From sequence record OP045498.1: 64,000 nt of DNA, one strand, 5' to 3'. Positions 31,868-44,997 of the stretch are shown piece after piece. The number at the start of each line of letters is the position of its first letter. The stretch's first letter is position 1. Position numbers and translations under genes: made by a program. The notes beneath the pieces were generated by a model, which did no database searches, was not told the DNA's origin, and saw nothing but the letters and a program-made list of their open reading frames with translations. Source of the DNA: Klebsiella phage 150049.

Positions 31868-31943
31868 TGGTAGTTAGTAGTGGATTTGAACCACTGTAGT
31901 CGCTCCGTATGAAGGAGGTGCATAACCGCTCTGCCAACTAACT
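31868..31943 (-). tRNA. tRNA-Met/Ile2 (CAT)
   Basis: CCA-encoded; T-arm AGTGG TTCAAAT CCACT; anticodon loop TTCATAC. Confidence 0.6.
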
Positions 31944-31949
31944 ATAATT

Positions 31950-32025
31950 TGGTACTCCGACTTGGGATCGAACCAAGATTTGACGATTATCGGTCGCCTG
32001 TTCTAACCTGTTGAACTATCAGAGC
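31950..32025 (-). tRNA. tRNA-Ile (GAT)
   Basis: T-arm CTTGG TTCGATC CCAAG; anticodon loop CCGATAA. Confidence 0.7.
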
Positions 32026-32026
32026 A

Positions 32027-32320
32027 TTACATCATTTCATCTAAGTAAGAAGTATACTGGTATTTAGCTTCACCAGTCTTATCTACTTCTACCTCAGTTC
32101 GTGGTACTTTACGAACTAGACCGTGAATCATCTTATAGTTAATAGACTTAGATGGTTCGTGATCTTTTGGAAAGACTTGTTTAACCGTTACTACTTTGAA
32201 GCCTTCACGAGGTGTTAATACAACAACTTGATCACCTTCTTTAATTTTCCAGGACTCAGGAAATTCGTAAGTGTAGCGTTGACCACCAGTTTGGAACACG
32301 ACAGAAAGATAACGTTTCAT
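32027..32320 (-). CDS. hypothetical protein
   Basis: ORF with cassette upstream. Confidence 0.5.
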   Translation of the reverse strand: MKRYLSVVFQTGGQRYTYEFPESWKIKEGDQVVVLTPREGFKVVTVKQVFPKDHEPSKSINYKMIHGLVRKVPRTEVEVDKTGEAKYQYTSYLDEMM

Positions 32321-32385
32321 TTGGTTTCCCTCTCATTAATTTATATAAATATTATAACAAGAAATAAGAGAGAAGGCAAATGAAT
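32321..32385 (-). promoter_or_regulatory. early promoter cassette
   Basis: Conserved cassette. Confidence 0.55.
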
Positions 32386-32395
32386 TTTTTAAATT

Positions 32396-32470
32396 TGGTG
32401 CTCCCACCAGGAATCGAACCCGGTTCAGATGCTTACAAGGCAACTGCATCGCCAGCAATGCTTTAGGAGC
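32396..32470 (-). tRNA. tRNA-Thr (TGT)
   Basis: T-arm CGGGT TCGATTC; anticodon loop CTTGTAA. Confidence 0.65.
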
Positions 32471-32636
32471 ATTAACCCGTTATTTCAACGGGATTTCTTT
32501 TTCAAATACAGGAGACTTATCAGACATTACTGTCATAGCCAACTGCTGTAAGAATTCGAAGGAGAGTTTTAAACGTTCTTCACCCAACTCAACCTCAACA
32601 CACTTCATTTGCTTATCAACCTTTAGCTTTAGATTA

Positions 32637-32858
32637 TCAGCCATCTTCGGGTTCTCTTTGCTCAGCTATTGCTAGCCAGTCTGGTAAAAGAAACTTAGTA
32701 CGAAATTCTTCATATGTTTCTTCTGGATGAAAGCTATAGCCTTGTTTTTCATCATTTAATAAAACCGAACCATCTTCTTGCTCATAAGCTCGATATGTTT
32801 CACCAATAATTAAAACTCGTCTATTGGGGTTTTTATTACGAAACTCAAAAACGTCCAT
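32637..32858 (-). CDS. hypothetical protein
   Basis: ORF. Confidence 0.45.
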   Translation of the reverse strand: MDVFEFRNKNPNRRVLIIGETYRAYEQEDGSVLLNDEKQGYSFHPEETYEEFRTKFLLPDWLAIAEQREPEDG

Positions 32859-32874
32859 AACGTTTCCTTATATT

Positions 32875-32949
32875 TGGTGCGGGATACGAGAGTCGAACTC
32901 GTGTCTACTGGTTGGAAGCCAGTTATTCTAGCCACTGAACTAATCACGC
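32875..32949 (-). tRNA. tRNA-Gly (TCC)
   Basis: Anticodon arm ACTGG CTTCCAA CCAGT. Confidence 0.7.
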
Positions 32950-32955
32950 ATAAAT

Positions 32956-33031
32956 TGGCTGGAGAAGGAGGAATCGAACCTACCATTAACGGAGTCAAAG
33001 GCCGTTGTGCTAACCGTTACACTACTCTCCA
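32956..33031 (-). tRNA. tRNA-Gln (TTG)
   Basis: Anticodon loop CTTTGAC; T-loop TTCGATT. Confidence 0.6.
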
Positions 33032-33037
33032 ATTGTT

Positions 33038-33113
33038 TGGCTGGGATGCCACGGATCGAACGTGGAACCTTCGGAGTCAGAGGCCGACGATCTGCCAATT
33101 GATCTACATCCCA
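33038..33113 (-). tRNA. tRNA-Gln (CTG)
   Basis: Anticodon loop CTCTGAC; T-arm CCACG TTCGATC CGTGG. Confidence 0.6.
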
Positions 33114-33121
33114 ATAATTTT

Positions 33122-33322
33122 TTATTCTACAGGAACCGTGGCGATTGGATCAGGTTCTTCTAGACGTTTACCATTATGATCAACACGAATAATACCACAA
33201 CCCTCACAGATTACAACAGCACCATAGCCTTCTTTAACTTCGGCTTCTGTAATCAGACCAGAAAGATCACCAGTATCTTTGCCCCACATATCGATAGAGC
33301 ATTCTTTGCAGAAATCAGCCAT
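33122..33322 (-). CDS. zinc-ribbon small protein
   Basis: CKEC ... CEGC pairs. Confidence 0.45.
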   Translation of the reverse strand: MADFCKECSIDMWGKDTGDLSGLITEAEVKEGYGAVVICEGCGIIRVDHNGKRLEEPDPIATVPVE

Positions 33323-33346
33323 ATTTTATTTCCTGTTTAAGTTAAT

Positions 33347-33421
33347 TGGTGCATCCTCAGGGAATCGAACCCCGATCGTAAAGTTCGTAGCTTTACATTC
33401 TTTCCGTTGAAATAAGGACGC
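33347..33421 (-). tRNA. tRNA-Arg (ACG)
   Basis: Anticodon arm TAAAG CTACGAA CTTTA. Confidence 0.7.
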
Positions 33422-33427
33422 AATATT

Positions 33428-33504
33428 TGGGGTGGCTAGTGGAATTCGAATCCACATAGGCCTGATTCACAATCAGGATCATTAACCAATTATGATATAG
33501 CCAC
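33428..33504 (-). tRNA. tRNA-His (GTG)
   Basis: Perfect acceptor GTGGCTA/TAGCCAC; anticodon loop TTGTGAA; T-arm GTGGA TTCGAAT TCCAC. Confidence 0.75.
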
Positions 33505-33867
33505 AATTGAAAACCATTGAGGAGTAGCGAACTCTCTACACTAGAAGCTTGCATGCTCATACCTAGTGATTAGACCTAGCAAATAGGCGCTACAAGTAAC
33601 GACCCTAAGTGGTAGACTCAAACAGACAATGATTTTCAATTGTGGCGGCTCTCCGAAACTCATCACACTAACAACTAGTTGATTACTTCTGGATTCTCGC
33701 CCAGAAAATTCTCTAGAAAGGTGCACCGTTACTCTTTGAGCCATTGATGATGGGATGGTCTCTCATCCCCACTAACTACTTAATCCTTACGATTCGTCGG
33801 TTAGCACGAGCAGCAACCCTTCATATATAATTTATAGTGCCCAGAAGGTCATTAGAAGCACTTTATC

Positions 33868-33999
33868 AAGAAGTAGAAGGACTCGAACCTTCAAGAGATA
33901 GACCATTTATCTCAGCCTCGTTTTCGGGTATCTTATGAGGAGTGGATGTTCCCCTTACGCCCTTTAGGAAGCCCCGTCTACCGATTCCGGCATACTTCA
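33868..33999 (-). ncRNA. aberrant ~132-nt tRNA-like element (possible interrupted or decayed tRNA)
   Basis: Perfect D-arm CCCG GAATCGGTAGA CGGG and perfect T-arm GAAGG TTCGAGT CCTTC with pairing acceptor arms TGAAGTA/TACTTCT, but about 80 nt between D- and T-arms and no CCA. Confidence 0.3.
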
Positions 34000-34030
34000 A
34001 GATTCTGCTAGTCCGAGTCATGCTCTAGCA

Positions 34031-34372
34031 TCAAATGCTCGGTGTTAGTGGTTTCCAAAGTTTAGCAAACTTTAAAACATTTGGTATATCGTTAGAACTT
34101 ACTGGCATAACTACTAAACAGCTGGGTTCTGCGTTACAAATAGTACGCTCAAATCCTTTACTACACTCTAGCGTAGACAGAATCTTCTTAAATTCTTTCT
34201 TGTTAACCTTAATAACTACCTTAAAGAAGCAGTTGTCAAACCAATCCTTATATCTAGGATCATCCTGAAATTTAACATGAGCATTTAAAACAGAGTGTGC
34301 CACTAGAGTCGGCACCATATAATCAGGGGCTTCATCTAATACTGCAATATACATCTTACTATAAGTACTCAT
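34031..34372 (-). CDS. hypothetical protein
   Basis: ORF. Confidence 0.5.
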   Translation of the reverse strand: MSTYSKMYIAVLDEAPDYMVPTLVAHSVLNAHVKFQDDPRYKDWFDNCFFKVVIKVNKKEFKKILSTLECSKGFERTICNAEPSCLVVMPVSSNDIPNVLKFAKLWKPLTPSI

Positions 34373-34387
34373 ACTGTTCCTTATAAT

Positions 34388-34477
34388 TTGGAGGAAGGTA
34401 ATGGAGTCGAACCATCACCATATCGCTACAGCGGGCAGGTTTTCAAGACCTGTTACATACCACTATGTCCTACCTTC
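34388..34477 (-). tRNA. tRNA-Ser (TGA), class II
   Basis: Long variable arm CGCT GT AGCG; anticodon arm CAGGT CTTGAAA ACCTG. Confidence 0.7.
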
Positions 34478-34484
34478 CAGTTGT

Positions 34485-34577
34485 TTGGCGGAAGAAGAGA
34501 GATTCGAACTCTCAAGCCTGCTTTCACAAGTCAGCCACTTTCCAAGCGGTTTTCGTCACCAAGTCGATTTGCTCTTC
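34485..34577 (-). tRNA. tRNA-Ser (GGA), class II
   Basis: T-arm GAGAG TTCGAAT CTCTC; 3-bp D-stem; anticodon loop TTGGAAA; long variable arm. Confidence 0.5.
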
Positions 34578-34736
34578 CGTAGATCTCAGGATTAAATCAT
34601 AAACTTCATTAGCGGATACTGGAAGTATGAGATTATACATCTTTTGGTCATACCTCTGACCATACTCTATAAACACATACTCTTTAGTTAATGTATTAAC
34701 AGCTAACCAGATATCAGTTATAGGAGTTTTCATCAT
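34524..34736 (-). CDS. hypothetical small protein
   Basis: ORF; 3' end overlaps the tRNA-Ser(GGA) call by about 50 nt, so one of the two calls may be offset. Confidence 0.3.
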   Translation of the reverse strand: MMKTPITDIWLAVNTLTKEYVFIEYGQRYDQKMYNLILPVSANEVYDLILRSTEEQIDLVTKTAWKVADL

Positions 34737-34752
34737 GAGTTAATCCAATGTT

Positions 34753-34833
34753 TGGTAGGGATGGAGGGACTCGAACCCACACCCGAAGACTAGAACCTAA
34801 ATCTAGCGCGTCTGCCAATTTCGCCACATCCCC
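34753..34833 (-). tRNA. tRNA-Leu (TAG), class II
   Basis: Anticodon arm CTAGA TTTAGGT TCTAG; variable arm; T-loop TTCGAGT. Confidence 0.6.
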
Positions 34834-34840
34834 ATTTTAT

Positions 34841-35059
34841 TTAGTTAGAAATAAATAATAATCCCGCAACAATGGAACCTACGCCACTGAATACCATTAT
34901 CAGCATAGCTTCTAAGCTGATAAAGCGGACAGTATATGGAGCGCCCCAAGAATAATCAGTAAAGAAAGTTTTCTTTTCTTTAGCTAAATCTTTAACAGTT
35001 CTAAAATAGATAGCTAGTGCTAAAGCTGCAAGAACTACAGAGGTTGCTAAGAATACCAT
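34841..35059 (-). CDS. small membrane protein
   Basis: Two TM segments. Confidence 0.4.
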   Translation of the reverse strand: MVFLATSVVLAALALAIYFRTVKDLAKEKKTFFTDYSWGAPYTVRFISLEAMLIMVFSGVGSIVAGLLFISN

Positions 35060-35078
35060 ATTATTTCCTTAATTTGTT

Positions 35079-35154
35079 TGGTGGAGTCACTCAGAATTGA
35101 ACTGAGTTCCACTGCTTGCAAGGCAGTAAGTTTAACCAAATAACCTATGACCCC
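35079..35154 (-). tRNA. tRNA-Ala (TGC)
   Basis: G3:U70 pair; anticodon arm ACTGC CTTGCAA GCAGT. Confidence 0.7.
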
Positions 35155-35159
35155 GAATT

Positions 35160-35233
35160 TGGTGGAGAAAGAGGGAGTTGAACCCTCGTCTTCTGCGTGC
35201 AAAGCAGATGTTCTACCATTAAACTATATCCCC
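35160..35233 (-). tRNA. tRNA-Ala (TGC), second copy
   Basis: G3:U70; anticodon arm TCTGC TTTGCAC GCAGA identical to E. coli tRNA-Ala. Confidence 0.75.
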
Positions 35234-35560
35234 AAAATCTTTTAGTTTACTAAGGCTATTAGCTCGGTGTGCGTAATACCCTCGGCAATTAGCCATGCGA
35301 GGATACCCGCTCTCCACAAACCCGATACACTATTCAGTTGCCGCTGAATCTAGTGGACTAATCTAGAACTTCTTGCAAAGTATCCCCCGCCATTAGGGGT
35401 CTAATTGCAACCGTGCTTTTTGGCAGCCAGTCCTAGGTCGAGCTAATACCTTAGTGAACTAAATTGATGGATATCAGACTAATTTTGCTACGGCGTTTAT
35501 CCTGAGGATCTCTTTTTCGGTAGCTCTGCTAGTGTAGACGTCATACACCTGATATCTAGG

Positions 35561-35640
35561 CAGCTATTTTCACATCAATTTATATAAATATTATAACAAG
35601 AAATTAAGCATCAAGCAAGTACATTTTTAGCAATTTCTTG
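35561..35640 (-). promoter_or_regulatory. early promoter cassette
   Basis: Conserved cassette upstream of CDS 35611-35970. Confidence 0.5.
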
Positions 35641-35970
35641 TAGTTCCTTAACGTCACTAACGAAAAGGTAGTCAGAGCTTCCAGAGTGCATACTCTGCAT
35701 AACCACACCACCATCCGGTGCATCTTCTTTCAAAGTAATACCTAACCAGAACTCGGCAAAACTAGGTGTTACCTCACCTTGACTTGCCTTGAACACATCG
35801 CCTTCTGTAATCTCTTGACCAGTGGAGAGTCCCATGTATGGTACGTTCAGATCAATATCTTTGTAGAATTCAGCTAGATCTTGCTCGAAATCCCAACCTT
35901 TAGAGATAGCGAACTCCATTGTTACATGACCGAAATAGCCTTGAACCTTGCTTGATAATTGCATTTGCAA
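35611..35970 (-). CDS. hypothetical protein
   Basis: ORF. Confidence 0.5.
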   Translation of the reverse strand: MQMQLSSKVQGYFGHVTMEFAISKGWDFEQDLAEFYKDIDLNVPYMGLSTGQEITEGDVFKASQGEVTPSFAEFWLGITLKEDAPDGGVVMQSMHSGSSDYLFVSDVKELQEIAKNVLA

Positions 35971-35989
35971 TTCCTTATTTTGAGTTAAT

Positions 35990-36063
35990 TGGTACTCGGT
36001 GATAGAATCGAACTATCGCAACCGCCGTGTAAAGACGGGGTTCTCCCATTAAACTAACCGAGC
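35990..36063 (-). tRNA. tRNA-Val (TAC)
   Basis: Anticodon arm CCGTC TTTACAC GGCGG; T-arm GATAG TTCGATT CTATC. Confidence 0.75.
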
Positions 36064-36196
36064 AAAAGACGTCCTATAATATAGGCTTCAACTACAAATT
36101 CACAGAAACCTGCTAAAAACATACCTATTGTAAAATCGGCAGAGAATACATAGGAATCTTTTATTTTCTGCTTCATTAAGTAAAACCAGATAGTCA

Positions 36197-36514
36197 TTAA
36201 AATCTCTCCATTCTAAAGCCAATGAAGTAAGGTGCATTACATGGAACATGCTTAAGATCTTTAAGAGTAATTTTACGTCCTAAGCGTCGTTCCATACAAG
36301 TGAAACATAGAACAATATCTTTGGGCTGCTCTTTTCTTATCTGATCCCAGACCCAATCTTCAACCATACACATTTCATGGTATTGTTCACAGTCTCGACA
36401 ATAATGTCGCTGATGTTCTGGTACTTTTTGATTTTTAATACACAGTTCAGTAAAGCGTTTTCCGGCTCTGCCAGACATTTCTGATATTGTTTCTAGAACT
36501 TTGTTAATATTCAT
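36197..36514 (-). CDS. Cys/His-rich protein
   Basis: HYCRDCEQYHEMC ... CFTCMERR. Confidence 0.5.
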   Translation of the reverse strand: MNINKVLETISEMSGRAGKRFTELCIKNQKVPEHQRHYCRDCEQYHEMCMVEDWVWDQIRKEQPKDIVLCFTCMERRLGRKITLKDLKHVPCNAPYFIGFRMERF

Positions 36515-36531
36515 AACAAATTCCTTTAAAT

Positions 36532-36610
36532 TGGTAGACCGCCTGGGACTCGAACCCAGAACCTTCCGGTTAAAAGCCGGGTGCTGCTAAACCAATTGAG
36601 CTAGCGATCT
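36532..36610 (-). tRNA. tRNA-Lys (TTT)
   Basis: Anticodon hairpin CCGG CTTTTAA CCGG; T-arm CTGGG TTCGAGT CCCAG; D-region 3 nt longer than canonical. Confidence 0.55.
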
Positions 36611-36612
36611 AT

Positions 36613-36777
36613 TTAGTACATATATACTTCTTTAATAGAGTAGACTTTTAAGTAAGGATGATTAATACCAAATTCCGCCATCACTTCGTTTTCATCTTTA
36701 CCGTAATGGGCTAGTGGATACTTCTTACGATCTTTGCTAGAACGTAGATCACTTACTTTTAAACGAAATAATTTCAT
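36613..36777 (-). CDS. 54 aa small protein between tRNAs
   Basis: AGAAGGA RBS before ATG 36777; stop at 36613. Confidence 0.35.
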   Translation of the reverse strand: MKLFRLKVSDLRSSKDRKKYPLAHYGKDENEVMAEFGINHPYLKVYSIKEVYMY

Positions 36778-36798
36778 TTCGAAATCCTTCTATTAAAT

Positions 36799-36876
36799 TG
36801 GAAGCGGGTGTAGGAATCGAACCTACCTCTTTCTAGCTTATGAGACTAGCGATCTCTACCAGAGATCTAACCCGCA
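36799..36876 (-). tRNA. tRNA-Met (CAT)
   Basis: D-arm GATC TCTGGTAGA GATC; anticodon arm CTAGT CTCATAA GCTAG. Confidence 0.65.
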
Positions 36877-36882
36877 ATTGTT

Positions 36883-36960
36883 TGGTCTCCGTGGGAGGAT
36901 TTGAACCCCCGACCCTACCGCCCCAAACGGAACGCTCTGGCCAAACTGAGCTACACGGAG
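36883..36960 (-). tRNA. tRNA-Pro (TGG)
   Basis: Perfect acceptor CTCCGTG/CACGGAG; anticodon loop TTTGGGG as in E. coli tRNA-Pro. Confidence 0.75.
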
Positions 36961-36963
36961 AAT

Positions 36964-37030
36964 ATTCTTTGTTAACTCACTTTATAAAATATATTATACA
37001 GATATTTAAGCATAATAGCAAATGAGTTTT
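36964..37030 (-). promoter_or_regulatory. early promoter cassette driving tRNA transcription (no RBS or ATG)
   Basis: Cassette -35/-10 immediately upstream of the tRNA-Pro 5' end. Confidence 0.5.
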
Positions 37031-37272
37031 TAATAAATTTACTTATTGCGTAGGCCACCTCACGCTTCAAACGCTCTGCTGACAAAGAAGTTTGCGAGAC
37101 TTCTCTTAAATGCCAGAATAGACCCGCCGATCTATCGGAACCTACTCAATAAGTAAACTTTCGTTTACCTACACCTACCTGGTCGGGAGGATTTTCAGCG
37201 ACTAGAACCGGCCGGAAACTCATCGCCTTGTTTATCTAGGAGTCCGTTCTCTAGGAAGCAGAAACCTAAATT

Positions 37273-37346
37273 TGGTGCGGTCGGAGGGAATCGAACCCTC
37301 AACTTTTGGTTGGCAACCAAAAATTATACCTTTTAACTACGAACGC
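37273..37346 (-). tRNA. tRNA-Gly (GCC)
   Basis: Anticodon arm TTTGG TTGCCAA CCAAA. Confidence 0.7.
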
Positions 37347-37355
37347 ATAATAAGT

Positions 37356-37477
37356 CAATCTAGGCAGGACTTGAACCTGCTATCACTTGTGCGGATTTAC
37401 GAGAACCATTCTTTCACTCGAATCGAACGAGCTTCTACCCTCGGCAAGCTGGTGTCCCCTCTCCACCACGCTAGAAT
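37356..37477 (-). ncRNA. aberrant ~122-nt tRNA-like element with two T-arm-like hairpins
   Basis: GCAGG TTCAAGT CCTGC and GCTCG TTCGATT CGAGT hairpins; acceptor-like arms ATTCTAG/CTAGATT pair 6/7; no canonical cloverleaf. Confidence 0.25.
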
Positions 37478-37549
37478 GTTTGTTAATGAATAGAGTCCGG
37501 TGTAGCAGTCCGTAAGGGTGCACCTACTGTAGCCTTTACTCTATTTGTT

Positions 37550-37626
37550 TGGTACTCCCAGAAGGACTTGAACCTTCAACCCTCCGCTTAAGAGGCGGTA
37601 GCTCTGACCAGTTGAGCTATGGAAGC
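37550..37626 (-). tRNA. tRNA-Lys (CTT)
   Basis: T-arm GAAGG TTCAAGT CCTTC; anticodon hairpin CCGC CTCTTAA GCGG. Confidence 0.6.
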
Positions 37627-37627
37627 A

Positions 37628-37819
37628 TTAAATCTCTTTTAAGAAATCTTTAGGAATAGTAAAACTAGGATAATCACCTGTTTCGTCTAATGTTACACTT
37701 GTATGCTCTATTCCAGTATATCGAGTATCATCTGAGGCTAAACCATAATCATGAAATTTCAATGAGTATACAGTTTGTCCTGCATGTTCACCTTTAATAA
37801 CTAAATATTTGCGTGTCAT
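37628..37819 (-). CDS. hypothetical small protein
   Basis: Start moved to ATG 37819 (AGGA RBS) to avoid tRNA-Asp. Confidence 0.4.
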   Translation of the reverse strand: MTRKYLVIKGEHAGQTVYSLKFHDYGLASDDTRYTGIEHTSVTLDETGDYPSFTIPKDFLKEI

Positions 37820-37833
37820 ACTATATCCTAAAT

Positions 37834-37910
37834 TGGCGCGACCGATGGGATTCGAACCCACATTCTCTCCCGTGACAGGGGAGTACCATTACCAAGCCAG
37901 CCCCGATCGC
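37834..37910 (-). tRNA. tRNA-Asp (GTC)
   Basis: Anticodon arm CTCCC CTGTCAC GGGAG; T-loop TTCGAAT. Confidence 0.75.
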
Positions 37911-37919
37911 ATAATTTGT

Positions 37920-38105
37920 TTACTCAGCTTTGAGTTTTTTGATAGCTTCCTCAACCTCTTTTAGAGCTTCACGACGCTCTACTTGACCTTGAAGTTCTTC
38001 AAGAAGTTCAGCTTTCAGAGCCTTAATAATATTACCACGAACCTTAATATTATTAATTAGATTATCACGATCAGCTTCTAGTCGAGCAATTGCACGAGTT
38101 GTCAT
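37920..38105 (-). CDS. small coiled-coil protein
   Basis: ORF. Confidence 0.4.
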   Translation of the reverse strand: MTTRAIARLEADRDNLINNIKVRGNIIKALKAELLEELQGQVERREALKEVEEAIKKLKAE

Positions 38106-38207
38106 ATCTATTTCCTCAGTTATTAATGAAAATGGTATCTGTGACTGAATTCGATATCAGTAATGATAGCTGGTTGGCTACCGGTTTACTTAACTCTACA
38201 CAGAATA

Positions 38208-38290
38208 TGGCGGGCCGTGTAGGATTCGAACCTACGTTGTCTTTCGACATGGATTAACAGTCCACCGCCAAACCGCTTGGCTAACGACCC
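38208..38290 (-). tRNA. tRNA-Asn (GTT) with extended variable loop
   Basis: Anticodon arm GTGGA CTGTTAA TCCAT as in E. coli tRNA-Asn, but a 13-nt variable region (83 nt total). Confidence 0.6.
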
Positions 38291-38297
38291 TAAAATT

Positions 38298-38373
38298 TGG
38301 ACGACCGCATGAGATTCGAACTCACATAAGGAGGTTTTGCAGGCCTCCGCCTAAGCCATTCAGCCAACGGTCG
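38298..38373 (-). tRNA. tRNA-Cys (GCA)
   Basis: Anticodon CTGCAAA; discriminator U73; T-arm GTGAG TTCGAAT CTCAT. Confidence 0.7.
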
Positions 38374-38551
38374 ATTTATCTTGCTTTTCGAGATTAGTAA
38401 ACTCTAGATCTTTAGAATGTCCTATAGATCTAGCATAATAGCCATCTCCAGCATCATAGCCTGACTTACCACACTCACACATCTTAAACTCTCTATAACG
38501 AGTGAAAATATGTTCAGAACCACAACACTTAAATTTAACTAACATTTTCAT
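38360..38551 (-). CDS. zinc-ribbon small protein
   Basis: CCGSEH ... CECGKS; 3' end overlaps the tRNA-Cys 5' end by 14 nt. Confidence 0.35.
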   Translation of the reverse strand: MKMLVKFKCCGSEHIFTRYREFKMCECGKSGYDAGDGYYARSIGHSKDLEFTNLEKQDKSTVG

Positions 38552-38790
38552 TTAACACGCTCCGGTAAATCTTCGAGTTTATATTGAGTAGCCACATTAG
38601 CAGCATCTAGTAACAAACCCATATGTTTAAGAATCCTAGTGATAGCCTCGCCTTCTGCTTCTTCTACAAAAGTGCGTAGTTGAATGAAGTCAATACCACC
38701 ATCCATACCAGAGAAAATGTTAAGTAAGCGAAGCATTACCAGCTTACGTTCTTTCAGTTCTTGTTCTGTCATGTTGCTTCTCCAGTTCAA
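38548..38790 (-). CDS. hypothetical protein
   Basis: ORF; cassette upstream. Confidence 0.45.
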   Translation of the reverse strand: MNWRSNMTEQELKERKLVMLRLLNIFSGMDGGIDFIQLRTFVEEAEGEAITRILKHMGLLLDAANVATQYKLEDLPERVK

Positions 38791-38860
38791 TTTATGTAAT
38801 AATTATACAGAACTTTAAGCGGTTAAGCAACTACATTTTTCAGAAATATGATGCCTTTCT
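38791..38860 (-). promoter_or_regulatory. early promoter cassette
   Basis: Conserved cassette. Confidence 0.5.
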
Positions 38861-39110
38861 TTTTCTTCTTATACTTCCACGTTAATGGATTCTGTCTATT
38901 ATGAACGCTTGAGATCTTTGTCTCGTCAAAGTTCTTCAATACCATGTAATCACAGGCCAACTGTTCTAGTGGGATGTGATCTCCGTCAAAAGCATAAACA
39001 TAAGGTTGTTGACTAGCACGATAATGATAGACTTTGTTAATTCTACGTTTCAGTGACTTATCCGCACAGTAAATAAAGAAGTTTTCAGGATGCATCAGCA
39101 TCTCCTTCAA
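38823..39110 (-). CDS. hypothetical protein
   Basis: ORF; its 3' end overlaps the cassette span upstream of CDS 38548-38790. Confidence 0.45.
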   Translation of the reverse strand: MKEMLMHPENFFIYCADKSLKRRINKVYHYRASQQPYVYAFDGDHIPLEQLACDYMVLKNFDETKISSVHNRQNPLTWKYKKKKKGIIFLKNVVA

Positions 39111-39112
39111 AT

Positions 39113-39187
39113 TGGTGCACCCTGTTCGTATCGAACGAACCTCTCAAGCTCTTCAGGCAAGCGCTAATCCATCTCAGCTAAAGGTGC
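39113..39187 (-). tRNA. tRNA-Phe (GAA), weak anticodon stem
   Basis: Acceptor and T-arm (GTTCG TTCGATA CGAAC) good; loop CTGAAGA; anticodon stem has two U-U mismatches. Confidence 0.45.
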
Positions 39188-39193
39188 AAATAT

Positions 39194-39270
39194 TGGCAAA
39201 CCTACTAGGACTCGAACCTAGACCGTACGGTTTTGGAGACCGACATGCTGTCCAGTAACACTCTAGGAAT
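39194..39270 (-). tRNA. tRNA-Trp (CCA)
   Basis: Anticodon arm TCGGT CTCCAAA ACCGT as in E. coli tRNA-Trp; acceptor has two mismatches. Confidence 0.6.
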
Positions 39271-39278
39271 GCAGAAAT

Positions 39279-39355
39279 TGGCGTCCTGTGCGGGGATCGA
39301 ACCCGCAAATCCTACCTTGAAAGGGTAGTGACTTTACCAGTTTGTCTAACAGGAC
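39279..39355 (-). tRNA. tRNA-Glu (TTC)
   Basis: Perfect acceptor GTCCTGT/ACAGGAC; anticodon arm CTACC CTTTCAA GGTAG. Confidence 0.8.
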
Positions 39356-39362
39356 TTAAATT

Positions 39363-39453
39363 TGGTGTTGGATGATGGAGTCGAACCACCCGAGACCCTT
39401 CCGAGTCGGCAGATTTACAGTCTGCTTCGCTACCTCTACGATACTAATCCAAC
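39363..39453 (-). tRNA. tRNA-Tyr (GTA), class II
   Basis: Perfect acceptor GTTGGAT/ATCCAAC; anticodon arm GCAGA CTGTAAA TCTGC identical to E. coli tRNA-Tyr; long variable arm. Confidence 0.8.
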
Positions 39454-39582
39454 ATATTTAGAAATATTCAAATACTAGTTTAAACACTTTTAAATATGTT
39501 TTCCAAATTAGATAACTATTATATCAAGTTTTGAAGGACTGAGCAAGTCAAATTTTAAAGAACTTGCTCAGTGCTATATCAG

Positions 39583-39858
39583 TTACTCGAAGCTAGGAGT
39601 GACACTCAGTTTGAATGGAAGCTCGAACACTTCTTCATAATCATCATTGAGCGTAATTACACGACCTTCTAGCTTAGTCATGGTGATTTCGATATCAGCC
39701 TTTGCATCAGGAGCCATACCAGCTTCCACACATTTAGCTTTGACTTCCGGCAGAAGTTCTACATCGTAGAAATAAAGCCATTCAATCTCACCTTCCCAGC
39801 CACCCCAGGATTTACAAACAGCACTTTCAACACCAGTTGCAGTAACACGTTTTGACAT
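39583..39858 (-). CDS. hypothetical protein
   Basis: ORF; cassette upstream. Confidence 0.45.
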   Translation of the reverse strand: MSKRVTATGVESAVCKSWGGWEGEIEWLYFYDVELLPEVKAKCVEAGMAPDAKADIEITMTKLEGRVITLNDDYEEVFELPFKLSVTPSFE

Positions 39859-39935
39859 TCGTTAACTCCTTCATCAATTTATATAACTATTATAGCAGAA
39901 ATCTTAAGTAAAAAGCAAGTACATTTTTAAAATTT
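39859..39935 (-). promoter_or_regulatory. early promoter cassette
   Basis: Conserved cassette. Confidence 0.5.
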
Positions 39936-39948
39936 CTGCTTGGAGGAG

Positions 39949-40155
39949 TTAAACTCCTGATTCTTCTGCCAGATCAAGCCCAACCAATGTGATTGCCATA
40001 ATAGCCGCGCCATGTTCTTTCTCTCCTAGCTCTTTGGCTTGAGTGAGAATATTGAGGAATTGCTTCTGAAAATCTGCAACTTCTTCTGTCATGCCTGCTT
40101 CAGCAATAATTCCTTTCAGCATAAAGCGTTGTGCCGTAATTTCAGGATTAGCCAT
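39949..40155 (-). CDS. hypothetical small protein
   Basis: ORF. Confidence 0.4.
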   Translation of the reverse strand: MANPEITAQRFMLKGIIAEAGMTEEVADFQKQFLNILTQAKELGEKEHGAAIMAITLVGLDLAEESGV

Positions 40156-40168
40156 TTATTATCTCCAG

Positions 40169-40291
40169 TTATTTAGAATGTAAGCCAAACTTAGGATCAT
40201 AGCGATCGTAAGTCGTACCATTAGTTGAAGCCTTGATGCTATGAAAACGACAGTACATAAATTTACGTAGTGCTTTCTTAATAGCTTTCAT
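40169..40291 (-). CDS. 40 aa basic peptide
   Basis: AAGGAAATAAA ATG at 40291; stop at 40169. Confidence 0.3.
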   Translation of the reverse strand: MKAIKKALRKFMYCRFHSIKASTNGTTYDRYDPKFGLHSK

Positions 40292-40306
40292 TTTATTTCC
40301 TTAATT

Positions 40307-40383
40307 TGGTAGGGGTGGTGGGATTCGAACCCACAAAACCTGAATTTTAAGTCCAGTACCTATGCCAATTCGATTACACCCCC
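40307..40383 (-). tRNA. class-I tRNA with UAA anticodon (Leu by anticodon)
   Basis: Acceptor GGGGGTG/CACCCCT; T-arm GTGGG TTCGAAT CCCAC; anticodon arm CTGGA CTTAAAA TTCAG; short variable loop is unusual for Leu. Confidence 0.5.
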
Positions 40384-40391
40384 ATGTAATC

Positions 40392-40730
40392 TTAGCGAAT
40401 CTCTAAACCCTGGAAATATCGAGGGAATGGAGAGCCAACTTCAAAATTGATGCCCCAGTTAAGTTCAACGAGTTCAGATTTATTAAGATCTAGGCCATTA
40501 CCTTCAAAGATATAGCCGTAAACCGCAGGGAACATAGCTGCTAGATCTTCCATATCGGAATGAGCATTGTGTTCTTCACGGAACTGCTCAAACTCTTCAA
40601 AGAACTTTTCTAGGAAAAACTCAGGTACGATGAACGTTACCACATCAGTAGAATCATCGGTACGATACACCGTAGCTTGGAACAAGCCAACACCTAAAAG
40701 GTTTATTGCCGGAGTAGTAAAAATATCCAT
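40392..40730 (-). CDS. hypothetical protein
   Basis: Start ATG 40730 with GAGAGAGG RBS. Confidence 0.45.
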   Translation of the reverse strand: MDIFTTPAINLLGVGLFQATVYRTDDSTDVVTFIVPEFFLEKFFEEFEQFREEHNAHSDMEDLAAMFPAVYGYIFEGNGLDLNKSELVELNWGINFEVGSPFPRYFQGLEIR

Positions 40731-40731
40731 C

Positions 40732-40917
40732 TTAGCCTCTCTCAATGTCTAGACAAATTGCATATTCAGGGTTGATACCAGTACCTTTACATGTAGGACA
40801 TTCCCATTCTCTACAGAAAATATCCCCAGGCTCTGCATCATCCTGCCTACCACCACCATGACAGTCCTTACACCGACATTCTTCTAATGCTTTCTTCATT
40901 TCATAGAATCTAGACAT
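40732..40917 (-). CDS. zinc-ribbon small protein
   Basis: CRCKDCHGG ... CPTCKG. Confidence 0.4.
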   Translation of the reverse strand: MSRFYEMKKALEECRCKDCHGGGRQDDAEPGDIFCREWECPTCKGTGINPEYAICLDIERG

Positions 40918-40935
40918 ATAGTCTCCTAGTTAATT

Positions 40936-41012
40936 GGTGGCTCCCGGAGGATTCGAACCTACCTACCTTTCGCTTATGAGGCGACGGCTCATACCAAATG
41001 AGCTTGAGAACC
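40936..41012 (-). tRNA. tRNA-Met (CAT), third CAT tRNA
   Basis: D-arm GCTC ATTTGGTAT GAGC; anticodon loop CTCATAA. Confidence 0.6.
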
Positions 41013-41017
41013 AAATT

Positions 41018-41111
41018 TGGAGGAAGATGCCAGACTCGAACTGGCACACCGTGTCTCCACAGCTACTGGCTGTTTAGCAAACAGCTCCCTTACCTTTAGG
41101 GTTAATCTTCC
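41018..41111 (-). tRNA. tRNA-Ser (GCT), class II
   Basis: Perfect acceptor GGAAGAT/ATCTTCC; anticodon arm GCTGT TTGCTAA ACAGC; long variable arm. Confidence 0.75.
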
Positions 41112-41112
41112 A

Positions 41113-41530: not shown

Positions 41531-41534
41531 GTAT

Positions 41535-44549: not shown

Positions 44550-44571
44550 TCTTTAAGGGGAGGAGCCCATT

Positions 44572-44988: not shown

Positions 44989-44997
44989 GGAGGAATT

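What the first reader, a model, noticed from the sequence alone, without database searches (positions are those of the whole stretch)
31868..41111. 30-gene tRNA set decoding all 20 amino acids, organised in promoter-delimited sub-clusters
By my manual cloverleaf reading, the window holds 29 clustered tRNAs plus tRNA-Arg(TCT) at 46492. They comprise Met/CAT x3, Ile, Thr, Gly x2, Gln x2, Arg x2, His, Ser x3, Leu(TAG), a class-I UAA-anticodon tRNA, Ala x2 (both with G3:U70), Val, Lys x2, Pro, Asp, Asn, Cys, Phe, Trp, Glu and Tyr. T4 itself has 8. Several are separated by only 5-8 nt (for example Trp-Glu-Tyr), and two cassette promoters (36964-37030, 41113-41175) lack RBS and ATG and sit directly upstream of tRNA runs. 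Two oddities deserve checking: the class-I tRNA with a UAA anticodon (40307-40383), and tRNA-Asn with a 13-nt variable loop.
Basis: seen in the sequence. Interest (0 to 1): 0.55.

Follow-up and report, generated by a model that had tools for sequence, protein, structure and literature searches.

The report
T5-like phage tRNA gene cluster
This is the well-known tRNA-rich region of a T5-like phage: 30 tRNA genes driven by strong early promoters. It is ordinary for this phage family, but its leucine tRNA without the usual long arm belongs to a widespread, little-described phage tRNA family.

Summary
The 30th, Ser(GGA) at 34486-34578, appears only at a relaxed threshold, but relatives annotate it and stem covariation supports it. 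All 30 lie on the minus strand and encode CCA.

The window is not T4-like. It is 95-97% identical to Epseptimavirus (T5-like) phages, and Salmonella phage BSP22A carries the same 30 annotated tRNAs. The "cassette promoters" are T5 early promoters. Eight lie in the region; three directly precede tRNAs, and a fourth precedes a stable-RNA homologue followed by two Ala tRNAs.

The Tyr tRNA is identical to the SP15 gene shown experimentally to defeat retron-Eco7. Lys(UUU) and Thr(UGU) lack the PARIS nuclease motif.

The set reads 54-60 of 61 codons. CGG, the one codon never covered, is almost absent from phage genes.

The UAA tRNA is not a pseudogene. It belongs to a covarying family of short-arm tRNA-Leu found in several phage lineages and over 200 viral contigs, with all E. 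coli LeuRS determinants kept. Charging by the host enzyme is untested.

The main finding is already known.

The parts
31868..31943 (-). tRNA CAU-a, probable elongator Met (U4-A69, A5-U68 and U29-A41, as in E. coli tRNA-Met)
   Evidence: ARAGORN; Rfam 49.9 bits; comparison
31950..32025 (-). tRNA-Ile(GAU)
   Evidence: Rfam 57.0 bits
32396..32470 (-). tRNA-Thr(UGU); the anticodon arm reads U36-A-A-G39, so it lacks the AriB UAAU motif
   Evidence: (47.4 bits)
32875..32949 (-). tRNA-Gly(UCC), with A73 and a U4.C69 mismatch
   Evidence: (65.5 bits)
32956..33031 (-). tRNA-Gln(UUG)
   Evidence: 50.0 bits
33038..33113 (-). tRNA-Gln(CUG)
   Evidence: 56.4 bits
33347..33421 (-). tRNA-Arg(ACG); absent from T5
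   Evidence: (53.4 bits)
33428..33504 (-). tRNA-His(GUG), with C73 but T rather than G at position -1
   Evidence: (59.9 bits)
34389..34478 (-). tRNA-Ser(UGA), long variable arm, U73
   Evidence: (29.1 bits, at threshold)
34486..34578 (-). tRNA-Ser(GGA), the 30th gene; weak D arm, G73-CCA
   Evidence: ARAGORN only at -ps90; Rfam tRNA-Sec 25.4 bits; orthologues annotated; compensatory changes against T5; cloverleaf minimum-energy fold
34753..34833 (-). tRNA-Leu(UAG), 81 nt, with a shortened variable region (about 10 nt)
   Evidence: (53.5 bits)
35079..35154 (-). tRNA-Ala(UGC) a, G3:U70
   Evidence: (59.6 bits)
35160..35233 (-). tRNA-Ala(UGC) b, G3:U70
   Evidence: (72.3 bits)
35990..36063 (-). 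tRNA-Val(UAC)
   Evidence: 57.8 bits
36532..36610 (-). tRNA-Lys(UUU); the anticodon arm reads U36-A-A-C39-C40-G41, so both AriB-critical positions (39 and 41) differ from the host
   Evidence: (54.3 bits)
36799..36876 (-). tRNA CAU-b, initiator-like (U1.U72 mismatch, G2-C71, C3-G70, G4-C69, A11:U24; but U73 and only one G:C in the lower anticodon stem)
   Evidence: (46.2 bits); its orthologue is named tRNAfM in T5 and tRNA-fMet in TrudiRoth
36883..36960 (-). tRNA-Pro(UGG)
   Evidence: 53.3 bits
37273..37346 (-). tRNA-Gly(GCC), with A73 and a U4.C69 mismatch; absent from T5
   Evidence: (64.4 bits)
37550..37626 (-). tRNA-Lys(CUU); no tRNA with this anticodon was among the E. coli K-12 tRNAs fetched; absent from T5
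   Evidence: (62.8 bits)
37834..37910 (-). tRNA-Asp(GUC)
   Evidence: 46.8 bits
38208..38290 (-). tRNA-Asn(GUU), 83 nt, 13-nt variable region with a GUC-GAAA-GAC hairpin, host-like anticodon arm, G73
   Evidence: (59.0 bits)
38298..38373 (-). tRNA-Cys(GCA)
   Evidence: 40.7 bits
39113..39187 (-). tRNA-Phe(GAA)
   Evidence: 42.4 bits
39194..39270 (-). tRNA-Trp(CCA), with U2.U71 and U3.U70 mismatches; absent from T5
   Evidence: (36.3 bits)
39279..39355 (-). tRNA-Glu(UUC)
   Evidence: 61.1 bits
39363..39453 (-). tRNA-Tyr(GUA), long arm; 100% identical to the phage SP15 tRNA-Tyr
   Evidence: (32.6 bits); PMC11555353
40307..40383 (-). tRNA-Leu(UAA) of type I shape: 5-nt variable loop, 3-bp D stem, 11-nt D loop, A14, A15, G18G19, A20a, U48, A73
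   Evidence: (57.4 bits)
40935..41012 (-). tRNA CAU-c, probable tRNA-Ile2 (C29-G41 kept through covarying stems in three alleles); not proven
   Evidence: (40.0 bits)
41018..41111 (-). tRNA-Ser(GCU), long arm, U73
   Evidence: 47.1 bits
46492..46566 (-). tRNA-Arg(UCU), the outlying member; it reads AGA/AGG, and AGA is 14.8 times enriched in phage late genes
   Evidence: (49.3 bits)
41126..41154 (-). T5-type early promoter (TTGCTT / 17 nt / TATAAT) placed directly before Ser(GCU) and CAU-c; 14 nt from the -10 element to the tRNA; no RBS or ATG
   Evidence: PWM score 60.7
39518..39546 (-). T5-type early promoter before Tyr-Glu-Trp-Phe; near-identical to the SP15 tRNA-Tyr promoter
   Evidence: (53.6); PMC11555353
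36993..37021 (-). T5-type early promoter before Pro and the fMet-like tRNA; homologue of T5 P13a
   Evidence: 51.8; 87.5% identity to P13a
35590..35618 (-). T5-type early promoter before the RNA2H homologue and two Ala tRNAs; homologue of T5 P13b
   Evidence: 54.2; 91% identity to P13b
41490..41518 (-). T5-type early promoter with an RBS and ATG (ORF 41459-41163)
39889..39918 (-). T5-type early promoter (18-nt spacer) with an RBS and ATG (ORF 39858-39583)
38802..38830 (-). T5-type early promoter heading the unit ORFs-Cys-Asn-ORF-Asp-ORF-Lys(CUU)-rna2-Gly(GCC)-RNAIV
32351..32379 (-). T5-type early promoter heading the unit ORF-Ile-Met

Best explanation
This is the tRNA-rich region of a T5-like siphovirus (Demerecviridae, Epseptimavirus).

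How it is expressed. Eight sigma-70 T5 early promoters on the minus strand drive polycistronic early transcripts. These transcripts mix 28 tRNAs with small conserved ORFs and T5-type stable RNAs; a 30th tRNA (Arg UCU) lies 5.4 kb upstream. I infer that host RNase P, endonucleases and 3' exonucleases release the tRNAs. The supporting sequence features are: every gene encodes CCA, 24 of 30 have U at -1, and 29 of 30 have A directly after CCA. I also infer that host synthetases charge the tRNAs.

What it does. The 27 anticodons form a near-minimal decoder, with U34 tRNAs in every four-codon box. They read 54-60 of the 61 sense codons, which is 96-100% of phage codons. This gives two benefits:
(a) Supply matches the phage's A/T-ending codon preference (AGA, AUA, CUA, ACA and others).
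(b) Phage translation continues when host tRNAs are destroyed by tRNA-targeting defences. This has been shown experimentally for orthologues: T5 tRNA-Lys, Thr and Asn against PARIS, and SP15 tRNA-Tyr, expressed from its strong promoter, against retron-Eco7.

The UAA tRNA. It is a genuine tRNA-Leu that has lost the long variable arm while keeping every determinant known for E. coli LeuRS. It belongs to a widespread phage family.

Shown here: the genes, their structures, the promoters, homology, codon statistics and covariation. Inferred: processing, charging, and the defence-evasion role in this particular phage.
For: Identity of the region:
- 95-97% nucleotide identity and the same gene order as annotated Epseptimavirus genomes, one of which has the same 30 annotated tRNAs.
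- The T5 record annotates the same tRNAs, promoters P13a and P13b, and the stable RNAs.

The tRNAs:
- 29 at default settings in two independent tools, 30 at a relaxed threshold.
- CCA encoded in all 30, and conserved flanks.

The promoters:
- PWM scores of 52-61 against a background 99.9th percentile of -13.8.

Codon usage, late genes versus E. coli:
- AGA 14.8x, CTA 3.6x, ATA 3.3x, ACA 3.3x.
- CGG at 0.1 per 1000, versus 5.9 per 1000 in E. coli. CGG is the only codon not covered under any wobble assumption.

Defence evasion:
- tRNA-Tyr is 100% identical to SP15's, and its promoter is nearly identical. That tRNA and promoter rescue phage from retron-Eco7 (PMC11555353).
- Lys(UUU) and Thr(UGU) have changed U39 and/or position 41, the positions that make T5 tRNA-Lys resistant to AriB (PMC12409363; PMC11464382).

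tRNA-Leu(UAA):
- 57.4 bits against Rfam, and 100% identical in 292 phage records.
- Seven-sequence covariation across four phage lineages: 97% of cells paired, 12 of 20 pairs compensatory, 0 of 500 shuffles as good.
- 66 distinct 77-mers from IMG/VR: 98.8% paired, with invariant U8, A14, A15, G18, G19 and A73.
- In the same loci Ser and Tyr keep their long arms.
- Work on E. coli LeuRS found that the arm is not needed (PMC9976931).
Against: - T5 and SP15 mutants lacking most of these tRNAs are viable on laboratory hosts, so the cluster is conditionally useful, not essential.
- Codon matching is only moderate. 17 of 27 exactly matching (Watson-Crick) codons are enriched in phage genes, against 15 of 34 other codons.
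- The Tyr and Asn anticodon arms are host-like, so not every member carries changes that would block a nuclease.
- Several members have non-canonical identity features that cast doubt on efficient charging: His without an encoded G-1, both Gly with A73, Trp with two U.U mismatches, and a weak D arm in Ser(GGA).
- One study reports that E. coli LeuRS failed to charge a natural type I tRNA-Leu from Streptomyces (PMC6614811).
- There are no expression or aminoacylation data for this phage.
Confidence: 0.85

Rival explanations
1. Codon-usage compensation only. The tRNAs exist solely to supply codons that are common in the AT-rich phage and rare in the host. Defence evasion is incidental.
For: Phage genes are strongly enriched in AGA, AGG, ATA, CTA, ACA, GGA and AAG, all read by phage tRNAs. 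CGG has no decoder and is avoided. Lys(CUU) adds an anticodon not found among the host tRNAs fetched, for AAG, which is 2.2 times enriched.
Against: The set covers all 20 amino acids, including codons that are rarer in the phage than in the host: GGC 0.25x, AGC 0.37x, CAG 0.55x, TGC 0.15x. Enrichment of exactly matching codons is modest (17 of 27 versus 15 of 34). Orthologous tRNAs rescue phage from PARIS and retron-Eco7.
Confidence: 0.25
2. Anti-defence only. The cluster is a set of nuclease-resistant or over-expressed replacement tRNAs, and codon matching is a by-product of general AT bias.
For: Experimental work on T5 and SP15. Lys and Thr have lost the AriB motif. Strong promoters sit directly in front of Tyr, Ser and Pro. 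Both Gly have A73, whereas the TacT toxin needs U73 plus G71.
Against: The Tyr and Asn anticodon arms are identical or nearly identical to the host's. No nuclease is known for most of the 20 isotypes. The anticodon choice (U34 in all four-codon boxes, Arg UCU, probable Ile2) tracks phage codon use.
Confidence: 0.25
3. Largely neutral or selfish accretion. The array is a recombination and homing-endonuclease hot spot where tRNA genes are gained, lost and decay, and several members are non-functional relics.
For: Content varies among close relatives: T5 has 23-25, SP15 has 22 over the part of its cluster that was fetched, TrudiRoth 26, and the window 30. Homing endonucleases and small ORFs are inserted between tRNAs in relatives. 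Ser(GGA), Ser(UGA), Tyr and Trp score low. A 63-aa ORF is inserted between Asp and Lys(CUU) only in this window.
Against: Individual tRNAs are 100% conserved across hundreds of genomes. Stems covary. CCA and the flanking processing signals are uniformly kept. Function has been demonstrated for orthologues.
Confidence: 0.1
4. The UAA-anticodon type I tRNA is not a leucine tRNA. It could be a decoy for a nuclease, be mischarged (for example with Phe), or be a pseudogene.
For: It lacks the class II arm found in cellular bacterial tRNA-Leu. E. coli LeuRS failed on a Streptomyces type I tRNA-Leu. A35, A36 and A73 overlap with PheRS determinants (established identity rules, marked as my own knowledge).
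Against: It has a Leu-type D arm and A73. A14, A15, G18G19 and A20a are conserved in 63-66 of 66 family members. The same body carries the UAG and CAA Leu anticodons in other phages. TTA is used at normal Leu frequencies, 17-19 per 1000. It scores 57 bits against Rfam.
Confidence: 0.07

Closest known systems
Bacteriophage T5 tRNA gene region (records AY692264 and AY587007)
   Same: Same position in the early region, same strand and same order of shared tRNAs. Same promoter type (P13a and P13b homologues), same interspersed stable RNAs (RNA1, RNAI, RNAIII, RNA2H, RNAIV, rna2), and an identical tRNA-His.
   Different: The window has six more tRNAs: Arg ACG, a second Ala, Gly GCC, Lys CUU, Trp and Leu UAA. 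Its Lys(UUU), Asn, Tyr, Gly(UCC) and Leu(UAG) are different alleles. It has no HNH endonuclease genes in the region.
Epseptimavirus and SP15 tRNA-rich region (Salmonella phages BSP22A and S116, E. coli phages NG_S8 and SP15; Azam et al. 2024, PMC11555353)
   Same: 95-97% identical DNA. BSP22A is annotated with the same 30 tRNAs. tRNA-Tyr and its promoter match SP15, where they were shown to counter retron-Eco7.
   Different: Small indels. There is a 63-aa ORF between Asp and Lys(CUU). The Lys(CUU) allele differs. Ser(GGA) has one extra D-loop base, which drops it below the ARAGORN default threshold.
   Same: Clustered phage tRNAs with short spacers, co-transcribed with stable RNAs and processed by host enzymes (established knowledge).
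   Different: A different phage family with 8 rather than 30 genes. There is no sequence relationship; the window matches Demerecviridae, not T4-like phages.
Natural type I tRNA-Leu: Streptomyces coelicolor tRNA-Leu(CAA) and human mitochondrial tRNA-Leu(UUR) (PMC6614811)
   Same: A Leu anticodon on a tRNA with a short variable loop.
   Different: The phage family infects hosts whose LeuRS was described there as charging only type II tRNA-Leu. It keeps the E. coli-type determinants (A73, A15-U48, G18G19, A20a) and occurs in viral and mobile tRNA arrays rather than in core genomes.
tRNA array units of bacteria, plasmids and mycobacteriophages (PMC4758250, PMC5966550, PMC12803027; seen as titles and abstracts only)
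   Same: Dense arrays of 20 or more tRNAs covering most amino acids, proposed to act against host defences. The short-arm Leu pattern hits in bacterial genome bins lie in such arrays.
   Different: Here the array is interrupted by ORFs and split into promoter-headed units inside a lytic phage early region.

Membership tests
tRNA (Rfam RF00005 / cloverleaf) | Covariance-model score at or above the gathering threshold (29 bits) | tested here: met
   29 of 30 genes score 29.1-72.3 bits. Ser(UGA) is exactly at threshold.
tRNA (Rfam RF00005 / cloverleaf) | The same criterion applied to the 30th gene, Ser(GGA) at 34486-34578 | tested here: inconclusive
   Below RF00005 threshold, with 25.4 bits against the tRNA-Sec model. 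ARAGORN calls it only at -ps90. The cloverleaf minimum-energy fold, compensatory changes against T5 and annotated orthologues argue that it is real.
tRNA (Rfam RF00005 / cloverleaf) | Seven-nucleotide anticodon loop, T arm, acceptor stem and a 3' CCA | tested here: met
   ARAGORN structures; CCA is encoded in all 30.
tRNA (Rfam RF00005 / cloverleaf) | Expressed, processed and aminoacylated | not testable with these tools
   Published data exist only for orthologues: T5 Lys, Thr and Asn, and SP15 Tyr.
T5-like (Demerecviridae) tRNA-rich region | Nucleotide homology and synteny with annotated T5-like genomes | tested here: met
   606 phage records match; 105 cover at least 80% of the query; the best are 95-97% identical. 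Gene order is the same.
T5-like (Demerecviridae) tRNA-rich region | T5 early promoter cassettes (A/T-rich upstream element, TTGCTT, 17 nt, TATAAT, ATAAATT downstream) | tested here: met
   27 exact-spacing seeds in the window; 8 high-scoring copies in the region; 87-91% identity to T5 P13a and P13b.
T5-like (Demerecviridae) tRNA-rich region | Interspersed T5 stable RNAs | tested here: met
   RNA1, RNA2H, RNAIV and rna2 found by BLAST at 80-90% identity. RNAI and RNAIII found through conserved termini.
Type I (short variable loop) tRNA-Leu | Leu anticodon with a 4-5 nt variable loop | tested here: met
   UAA anticodon and variable loop GUUUU.
Type I (short variable loop) tRNA-Leu | Leucine identity elements of the host system (A73, A15-U48, G18G19 placement, A20a, U8-A14) | tested here: met
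   All are present in the window gene. In 66 family members they are invariant, except A20a (63 of 66) and U48, which the search pattern forced (rules from PMC9976931).
Type I (short variable loop) tRNA-Leu | Structure maintained by selection (covariation) | tested here: met
   97% of cells paired, 12 of 20 pairs with changes on both sides, 0 of 500 shuffles as good, and 42-56% paired when the pairing is slid out of register.
Type I (short variable loop) tRNA-Leu | Leucylated by the host LeuRS | not testable with these tools
   The literature conflicts. Arm-deleted E. coli tRNA-Leu variants are active, but E. coli LeuRS did not charge the Streptomyces type I tRNA-Leu(CAA).
Bacterial initiator tRNA-fMet (for CAU-b, 36799-36876) | Unpaired 1:72 plus G2-C71, C3-G70 and G4-C69 (the formylase determinants), and R11:Y24 | tested here: met
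   U1.U72, GCG/CGC at positions 2-4, and A11:U24 (rules).
Bacterial initiator tRNA-fMet (for CAU-b, 36799-36876) | Three consecutive G:C pairs at 29-31:39-41, and A73 | tested here: not met
   The anticodon stem is CUAGU/GCUAG, with only G30-C40, and the discriminator is U73. It is therefore filed as initiator-like, not as a canonical member.
tRNA-Ile2 (lysidine; for CAU-c, 40935-41012) | CAU anticodon with IleRS and TilS stem determinants (C29-G41, C4-G69) | tested here: inconclusive
   C29-G41 is present and kept in three covarying alleles, but 4:69 is U-A (rules). The lysidine modification itself cannot be tested here.
Bacterial tRNA-His | Genome-encoded G-1 opposite C73 | tested here: not met
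   Position -1 is T in the window, T5, NG_S8, BSP22A and STK8t; E. coli hisR has G. C73 and the GUG anticodon are present.

The most novel reading that the evidence does not exclude
The type I ("arm-less") tRNA-Leu is not a one-off. It represents a large family, which I could not find described, that is specific to viral and mobile tRNA arrays and carries the UAA, UAG and CAA anticodons. If the LeuRS of E. coli or Salmonella charges these tRNAs, that would contradict the published view that this enzyme serves only type II tRNA-Leu.

More broadly, the remodelled features in this set may be adaptations that let phage tRNAs escape tRNA-targeting toxins while still being charged. Those features are: Leu without the arm, Asn with an added variable-arm hairpin but a host-like AriB site, Gly with A73 instead of the U73 that TacT needs, and His without an encoded G-1.
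Probability: 0.4. Interest if true: 0.55.

Novelty: already known. Interest (0 to 1): 0.3.

Why it matters
As a tRNA cluster it adds nothing new. T5-like phages are known to carry 20-30 tRNAs under strong early promoters, and close relatives of this window are annotated with the same 30 genes.

Its value is as a well-resolved example for a current question: are phage tRNAs for codon supply, or for surviving tRNA-cleaving immunity? Here both signals are visible.
- Codon supply: AGA, AUA and CUA are enriched, and CGG is avoided.
- Immunity: there is an experimentally validated Tyr allele and promoter, and Lys and Thr lack the PARIS cleavage motif.

The side result is the part a tRNA specialist might not expect, and it can be tested directly with a LeuRS charging assay. 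Short-arm tRNA-Leu is common in phage tRNA arrays, while Ser and Tyr always keep their arms. This matches which synthetases need the arm.

Tried and rejected
1. T4-like origin. Rejected: megablast places the window in Demerecviridae/Epseptimavirus.

2. Further hidden tRNAs. Lowering the ARAGORN threshold to 85, 80 and 75% gives 35, 59 and 135 calls spread over the whole window, which is noise. Only the 90% level adds a single credible gene.

3. A 31st tRNA at about 33995-33866. It has an acceptor-like stem, a Leu-like D arm and a T arm. Rejected as a tRNA: it has no CCA and a roughly 65-nt expansion, and it is the homologue of the T5 stable RNA "RNA1".

4. The UAA tRNA as a pseudogene or a recoding tRNA. 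Rejected on score, conservation, covariation and identity elements.

5. Deciding which CAU tRNA is Ile2 from database annotation. The relatives simply call all of them Met or fMet. Only an inference from stem determinants was possible.

6. The generic sigma-70 consensus scan. It found no more sites than shuffled sequence (29 versus 36.9 expected). A PWM built from the cassette family was needed.

7. Literature searches for phage tRNA-Leu lacking the long arm, and for T5 tRNA-His lacking G-1. Nothing was found in the held library. This is not proof of absence.

8. Single-sequence folding z-scores for the tRNAs and stable RNAs. These were uninformative (z from -0.3 to -2.3).

Full report
**1. 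Observation**

ARAGORN at default settings finds 29 tRNA genes in the window. All are on the minus strand: 28 lie between 31868 and 41111, and tRNA-Arg(UCU) lies at 46492-46566. Rfam's tRNA model independently gives 29 matches at the same places, at or above its gathering score (29.1-72.3 bits).

- It is missed at default thresholds.
- It is the only extra call when ARAGORN's threshold is lowered to 90%. Lower thresholds give noise: 35, 59 and 135 calls.
- It scores 25 bits against Rfam's tRNA-Sec model.
- Read by hand, it has a perfect 7-bp acceptor stem, G73 and CCA, and its minimum-energy fold is a cloverleaf with a long arm.
- Its orthologues are annotated in NG_S8, BSP22A and T5.
- Between T5 and the window, the acceptor, anticodon and T stems differ by compensatory changes.

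I accept it as real but atypical: it has C8 and a weak D arm.

Other details also hold. All 30 genes encode CCA, and twelve neighbouring pairs are 5-8 nt apart. Both Ala tRNAs have G3:U70.

**2. What the window is**

The region is 95-97% identical over about 90-95% of its length to Epseptimavirus genomes (Demerecviridae, T5-like): Salmonella phages S116, 3-29 and BSP22A, and E. coli phages NG_S8 and PECP14. In all, 606 phage records match.

BSP22A is annotated with the same 30 tRNAs in the same order. T5 itself has 23-25, depending on the tool. Relative to T5, the window adds Arg(ACG), a second Ala, Gly(GCC), Lys(CUU), Trp and Leu(UAA).

T4 and its 8 tRNAs is therefore the wrong yardstick. For this family, 30 is normal.

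**3. Promoters and transcription units**

The consensus is AAAAATT..TTGCTT-17 nt-TATAAT-ATATT.ATAAATTGA.GAGAGG..ATG.

A PWM built from these promoters scores eight minus-strand copies in the tRNA region. Seven score 52-61 and the eighth, with an 18-nt spacer, scores 18.9; the 99.9th percentile of all window positions is -13.8. Their -35 hexamers start at 41518, 41154, 39918, 39546, 38830, 37021, 35618 and 32379.

- Three lack an RBS and ATG and run straight into tRNAs:
  - 41154 leads to Ser(GCU) and CAU-c, with 14 nt from the -10 element to the tRNA.
  - 39546 leads to Tyr-Glu-Trp-Phe.
  - 37021 leads to Pro and the fMet-like tRNA.
- A fourth, 35618, leads into an ORF-free stretch followed by two Ala tRNAs.
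- The promoters at 37021 and 35618 are the homologues of T5 promoters P13a and P13b, at 87.5% and 91% identity.
- The promoter at 39546 and the Tyr gene match phage SP15 almost base for base; the tRNA itself is 100% identical. [quoted passage not shown]

The generic consensus scan found no excess of promoter-like or terminator-like sites. The units therefore probably read through into one another.

The small ORFs between tRNAs are conserved phage families of unknown function.

**4. Decoding capacity and codon use**

There are 27 distinct anticodons, with a U34 tRNA in every four-codon box. I computed coverage under two assumptions.

| Assumption | Sense codons read (of 61) | Share of phage codons | Share of codons in 41 E. 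coli genes |
|---|---|---|---|
| Conservative wobble rules | 54-55 | 96-98% | 91-92% |
| U34 reads all four codons and one CAU tRNA is lysidinylated | 60 | 99.9-100% | 99.4% |

CGG is the only codon never covered. It occurs at 0.1 per 1000 codons in late genes of the close relative S116, against 5.9 per 1000 in E. coli.

Several codons are enriched in phage late genes relative to E. coli:
- AGA 14.8x
- ACT 5.8x
- AGG 4.6x
- TCT 4.3x
- GCT 3.7x
- CTA 3.6x
- ATA 3.3x
- ACA 3.3x

The match is only moderate overall. 17 of 27 exactly matching (Watson-Crick) codons are enriched, against 15 of 34 other codons.

**5. Relation to host tRNAs and to tRNA-targeting defences**

The phage tRNAs are 57-80% identical to the E. 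coli K-12 tRNAs with the same anticodon, so they are not recent captures.

PARIS. [quoted passage not shown] The changes U39A and A41C protect T5 tRNA-Lys (PMC11464382, PMC12409363).
- The window's Lys(UUU) reads UAACCG at these positions.
- Its Thr(UGU) reads UAAGCA. Both therefore lack the motif.
- Its Asn keeps the host sequence UAAUCC but carries an 8-nt insertion in the variable region.

Retron-Eco7. The Tyr anticodon arm is identical to the host's. This fits the published conclusion that Tyr works by abundance rather than by resistance.

Dispensability. T5 and SP15 deletion mutants lacking most of the cluster are viable on plain hosts.

I conclude that the cluster supplies a nearly host-independent decoder that serves both codon matching and insurance against tRNA depletion. 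The second role is demonstrated only for orthologues.

**6. The three CAU tRNAs**

CAU-b (36799-36876) is initiator-like.
- It has the formylase determinants: a 1:72 mismatch (U.U), G2-C71, C3-G70 and G4-C69, plus A11:U24 (rules).
- Its orthologue is named tRNAfM in the T5 record and tRNA-fMet in TrudiRoth.
- It lacks the three G:C pairs of the anticodon stem and has U73. I therefore call it initiator-like, not canonical.

CAU-a (31868-31943) is probably the elongator Met. It shares U4-A69, A5-U68 and U29-A41 with E. coli elongator tRNA-Met.

CAU-c (40935-41012) is probably tRNA-Ile2.
- It keeps C29-G41, an IleRS determinant, through three covarying alleles.
- Its anticodon arm is closer to E. 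coli ileX than to metT: 5 differences against 10.
- The T5 record names the GAU species "tRNAI1", which implies a second Ile tRNA.

Probably, then, the three are Met, fMet-like and Ile2. That would cover ATA, which is 3.3 times enriched. This is inference, not proof.

**7. The UAA-anticodon type I tRNA**

It is not a pseudogene. It scores 57.4 bits against Rfam and is 100% identical in 292 phage records, where it is annotated tRNA-Leu.

Apart from a 5-nt variable loop, its body is of the Leu type:
- a 3-bp D stem and an 11-nt D loop, GAAUUGGCAUA, as in E. coli leuZ;
- A14, A15, G18G19, A20a, U48 and A73;
- an acceptor stem starting GGGG with G1.U72, as in the phage's own Leu(UAG).

These are the elements reported to define leucine identity for E. 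coli LeuRS. That work found the long arm dispensable (PMC9976931).

The architecture recurs in other phages.
- SP15 and TrudiRoth carry a 77-nt Leu(UAG).
- Similar 77-78-nt Leu tRNAs occur in Felixounavirus (phiWec174, mio), Seunavirus 4MG and Vibrio phage Pylo.
- On these seven sequences, 97% of stem cells pair, 12 of 20 pairs show changes on both sides, and 0 of 500 shuffles reach this. Slid registers pair at only 42-56%.

- They yield 101 distinct sequences.
- 66 distinct 77-mers show 98.8% pairing, up to six pair types per position, and invariant U8, A14, A15, G18, G19 and A73.
- U48 and the T arm were fixed by the search pattern, so their invariance is not evidence.

The arm loss is specific to Leu. 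In the same loci, 205 of 207 Ser tRNAs and all 80 Tyr tRNAs keep a long arm. In contrast, 55 of 59 Leu(CAA), which the pattern did not select, are short.

The family is rare in cellular genomes. In 185,579 species-representative bacterial and archaeal genomes the combined pattern hits only 48 places. Almost all sit in dense tRNA arrays on metagenome-bin contigs, and none is in Enterobacteriaceae.

One paper reports that E. coli LeuRS could not charge the natural type I tRNA-Leu(CAA) of Streptomyces, and describes the enzyme as charging only type II (PMC6614811). Whether host LeuRS charges the phage family is therefore a real open question.

I found no paper describing this phage family. The library is limited, so this is not proof of novelty.

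**8. tRNA-Asn**

The 13-nt variable region is confirmed. It folds as a 3-bp hairpin with a GAAA loop. It is identical in six relatives but absent from T5's Asn, which instead has a changed anticodon arm.

In the IMG/VR sample, 12 of 62 distinct tRNA-Asn(GUU) are 83-98 nt long, with variable-arm hairpins on unrelated acceptor stems. An extended arm on Asn is therefore recurrent in phages.

Whether it shields the host-like AriB site is speculation.

**9. Verdict**

The object is the known tRNA-rich region of T5-like phages, so its novelty is "already known".

The one item with some novelty is the breadth and conservation of short-arm tRNA-Leu in phage tRNA arrays. The other non-canonical identity features are listed under things noticed in passing.

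Noticed in passing
window 33864-34001(-), 33643-33742(-), 33505-33640(-), 35317-35448(-), 37047-37145(-), 37354-37478(-): The ORF-free, G+C-rich stretches between tRNAs are homologues of the T5 stable RNAs: RNA1 (tRNA-like acceptor, D and T arms, no CCA), RNAI (conserved 5' GGCUCAAAG and 3' GAGAGCCGCCA ends with a diverged interior), RNAIII, RNA2H, RNAIV and rna2 (which has a T-arm-like GCAGGUUCGAAUCCUGU). Their function is, as far as I know, unknown.
   Followed up: partly
window 33428-33505(-); also L001, L002, L007, L008, L023: tRNA-His has C73 but T, not G, at position -1, so the G-1 identity element of bacterial HisRS is not encoded. The gene is identical in T5 and four relatives, and the T5 st0 record annotates a 78-nt tRNA that includes this T. 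In the IMG/VR sample about 23 of 58 distinct phage tRNA-His also have T at -1.
   Followed up: partly
window 32875-32949(-) and 37273-37346(-): Both tRNA-Gly genes have A73 where E. coli has U73, and both have a U4.C69 mismatch. A review states that the Salmonella TacT toxin recognises U73 plus G71, so A73 might confer immunity. This is speculation. T5's own Gly(UCC) has U73.
   Followed up: partly
window 39194-39270(-): tRNA-Trp has two consecutive U.U mismatches (2:71 and 3:70) in the acceptor stem, and the sequence is identical in six phages. G2-C71 and G3-C70 are TrpRS determinants in E. coli (my own knowledge).
   Followed up: no
flanks of all 30 tRNAs, window 31868-46566: 29 of 30 genes have A immediately after CCA, mostly as AAUUU, AUUU or AACAA. 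24 of 30 have T at -1. This looks like a uniform processing signature (the RNase P preference for U-1, and an A/U-rich 3' trailer).
   Followed up: no
window 37628-37819(-): A 63-aa ORF with its own RBS fills the gap between tRNA-Asp and tRNA-Lys(CUU). In NG_S8, BSP22A and STK8t these two tRNAs are only 6 nt apart. The ORF matches only part (positions 16-69 of 172) of PHROG 7900, a family of unknown function.
   Followed up: partly
IMG/VR loci L029-L231: Apart from Asn, other normally short tRNAs in phage arrays sometimes carry long variable arms: Ile(UAU) in 16 of 26, Thr(UGU) in 7 of 61, Met/CAU in 6 of 135 and Pro(UGG) in 5 of 71 distinct sequences are 80 nt or longer.
   Followed up: no
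genome loci L232-L279 (for example L264, L266, L275, L232): Metagenome-bin contigs, many assigned to Planctomycetota, hold very dense tRNA arrays (up to 36 tRNAs in 8 kb and 31 in 3.4 kb) that include short-arm tRNA-Leu. They are probably viral or mobile tRNA arrays that were binned with bacteria.
   Followed up: no
whole window, for example 60727, 57130, 54147, 52741, 52390, 50540, 49214, 48374, 47692, 43359 (-) and 2059, 62894 (+): About 29 copies of the same T5 early promoter cassette are spread over the 64 kb. 25 are on the minus strand, and most are followed by GAGAGG and an ATG.
   Followed up: partly
window 45255-45285(-): The strongest terminator-like hairpin of the region (12-bp stem, 7 G:C pairs, followed by a T run) lies between the main cluster and tRNA-Arg(UCU). 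Several weak Rfam leader and sRNA matches pile up here, probably because of the hairpin alone.
   Followed up: no
window 37550-37626(-): tRNA-Lys(CUU) carries an anticodon not present among the E. coli K-12 Lys tRNAs I fetched, which are all UUU. Its allele differs from that of the closest relatives in the acceptor and T stems.
   Followed up: no
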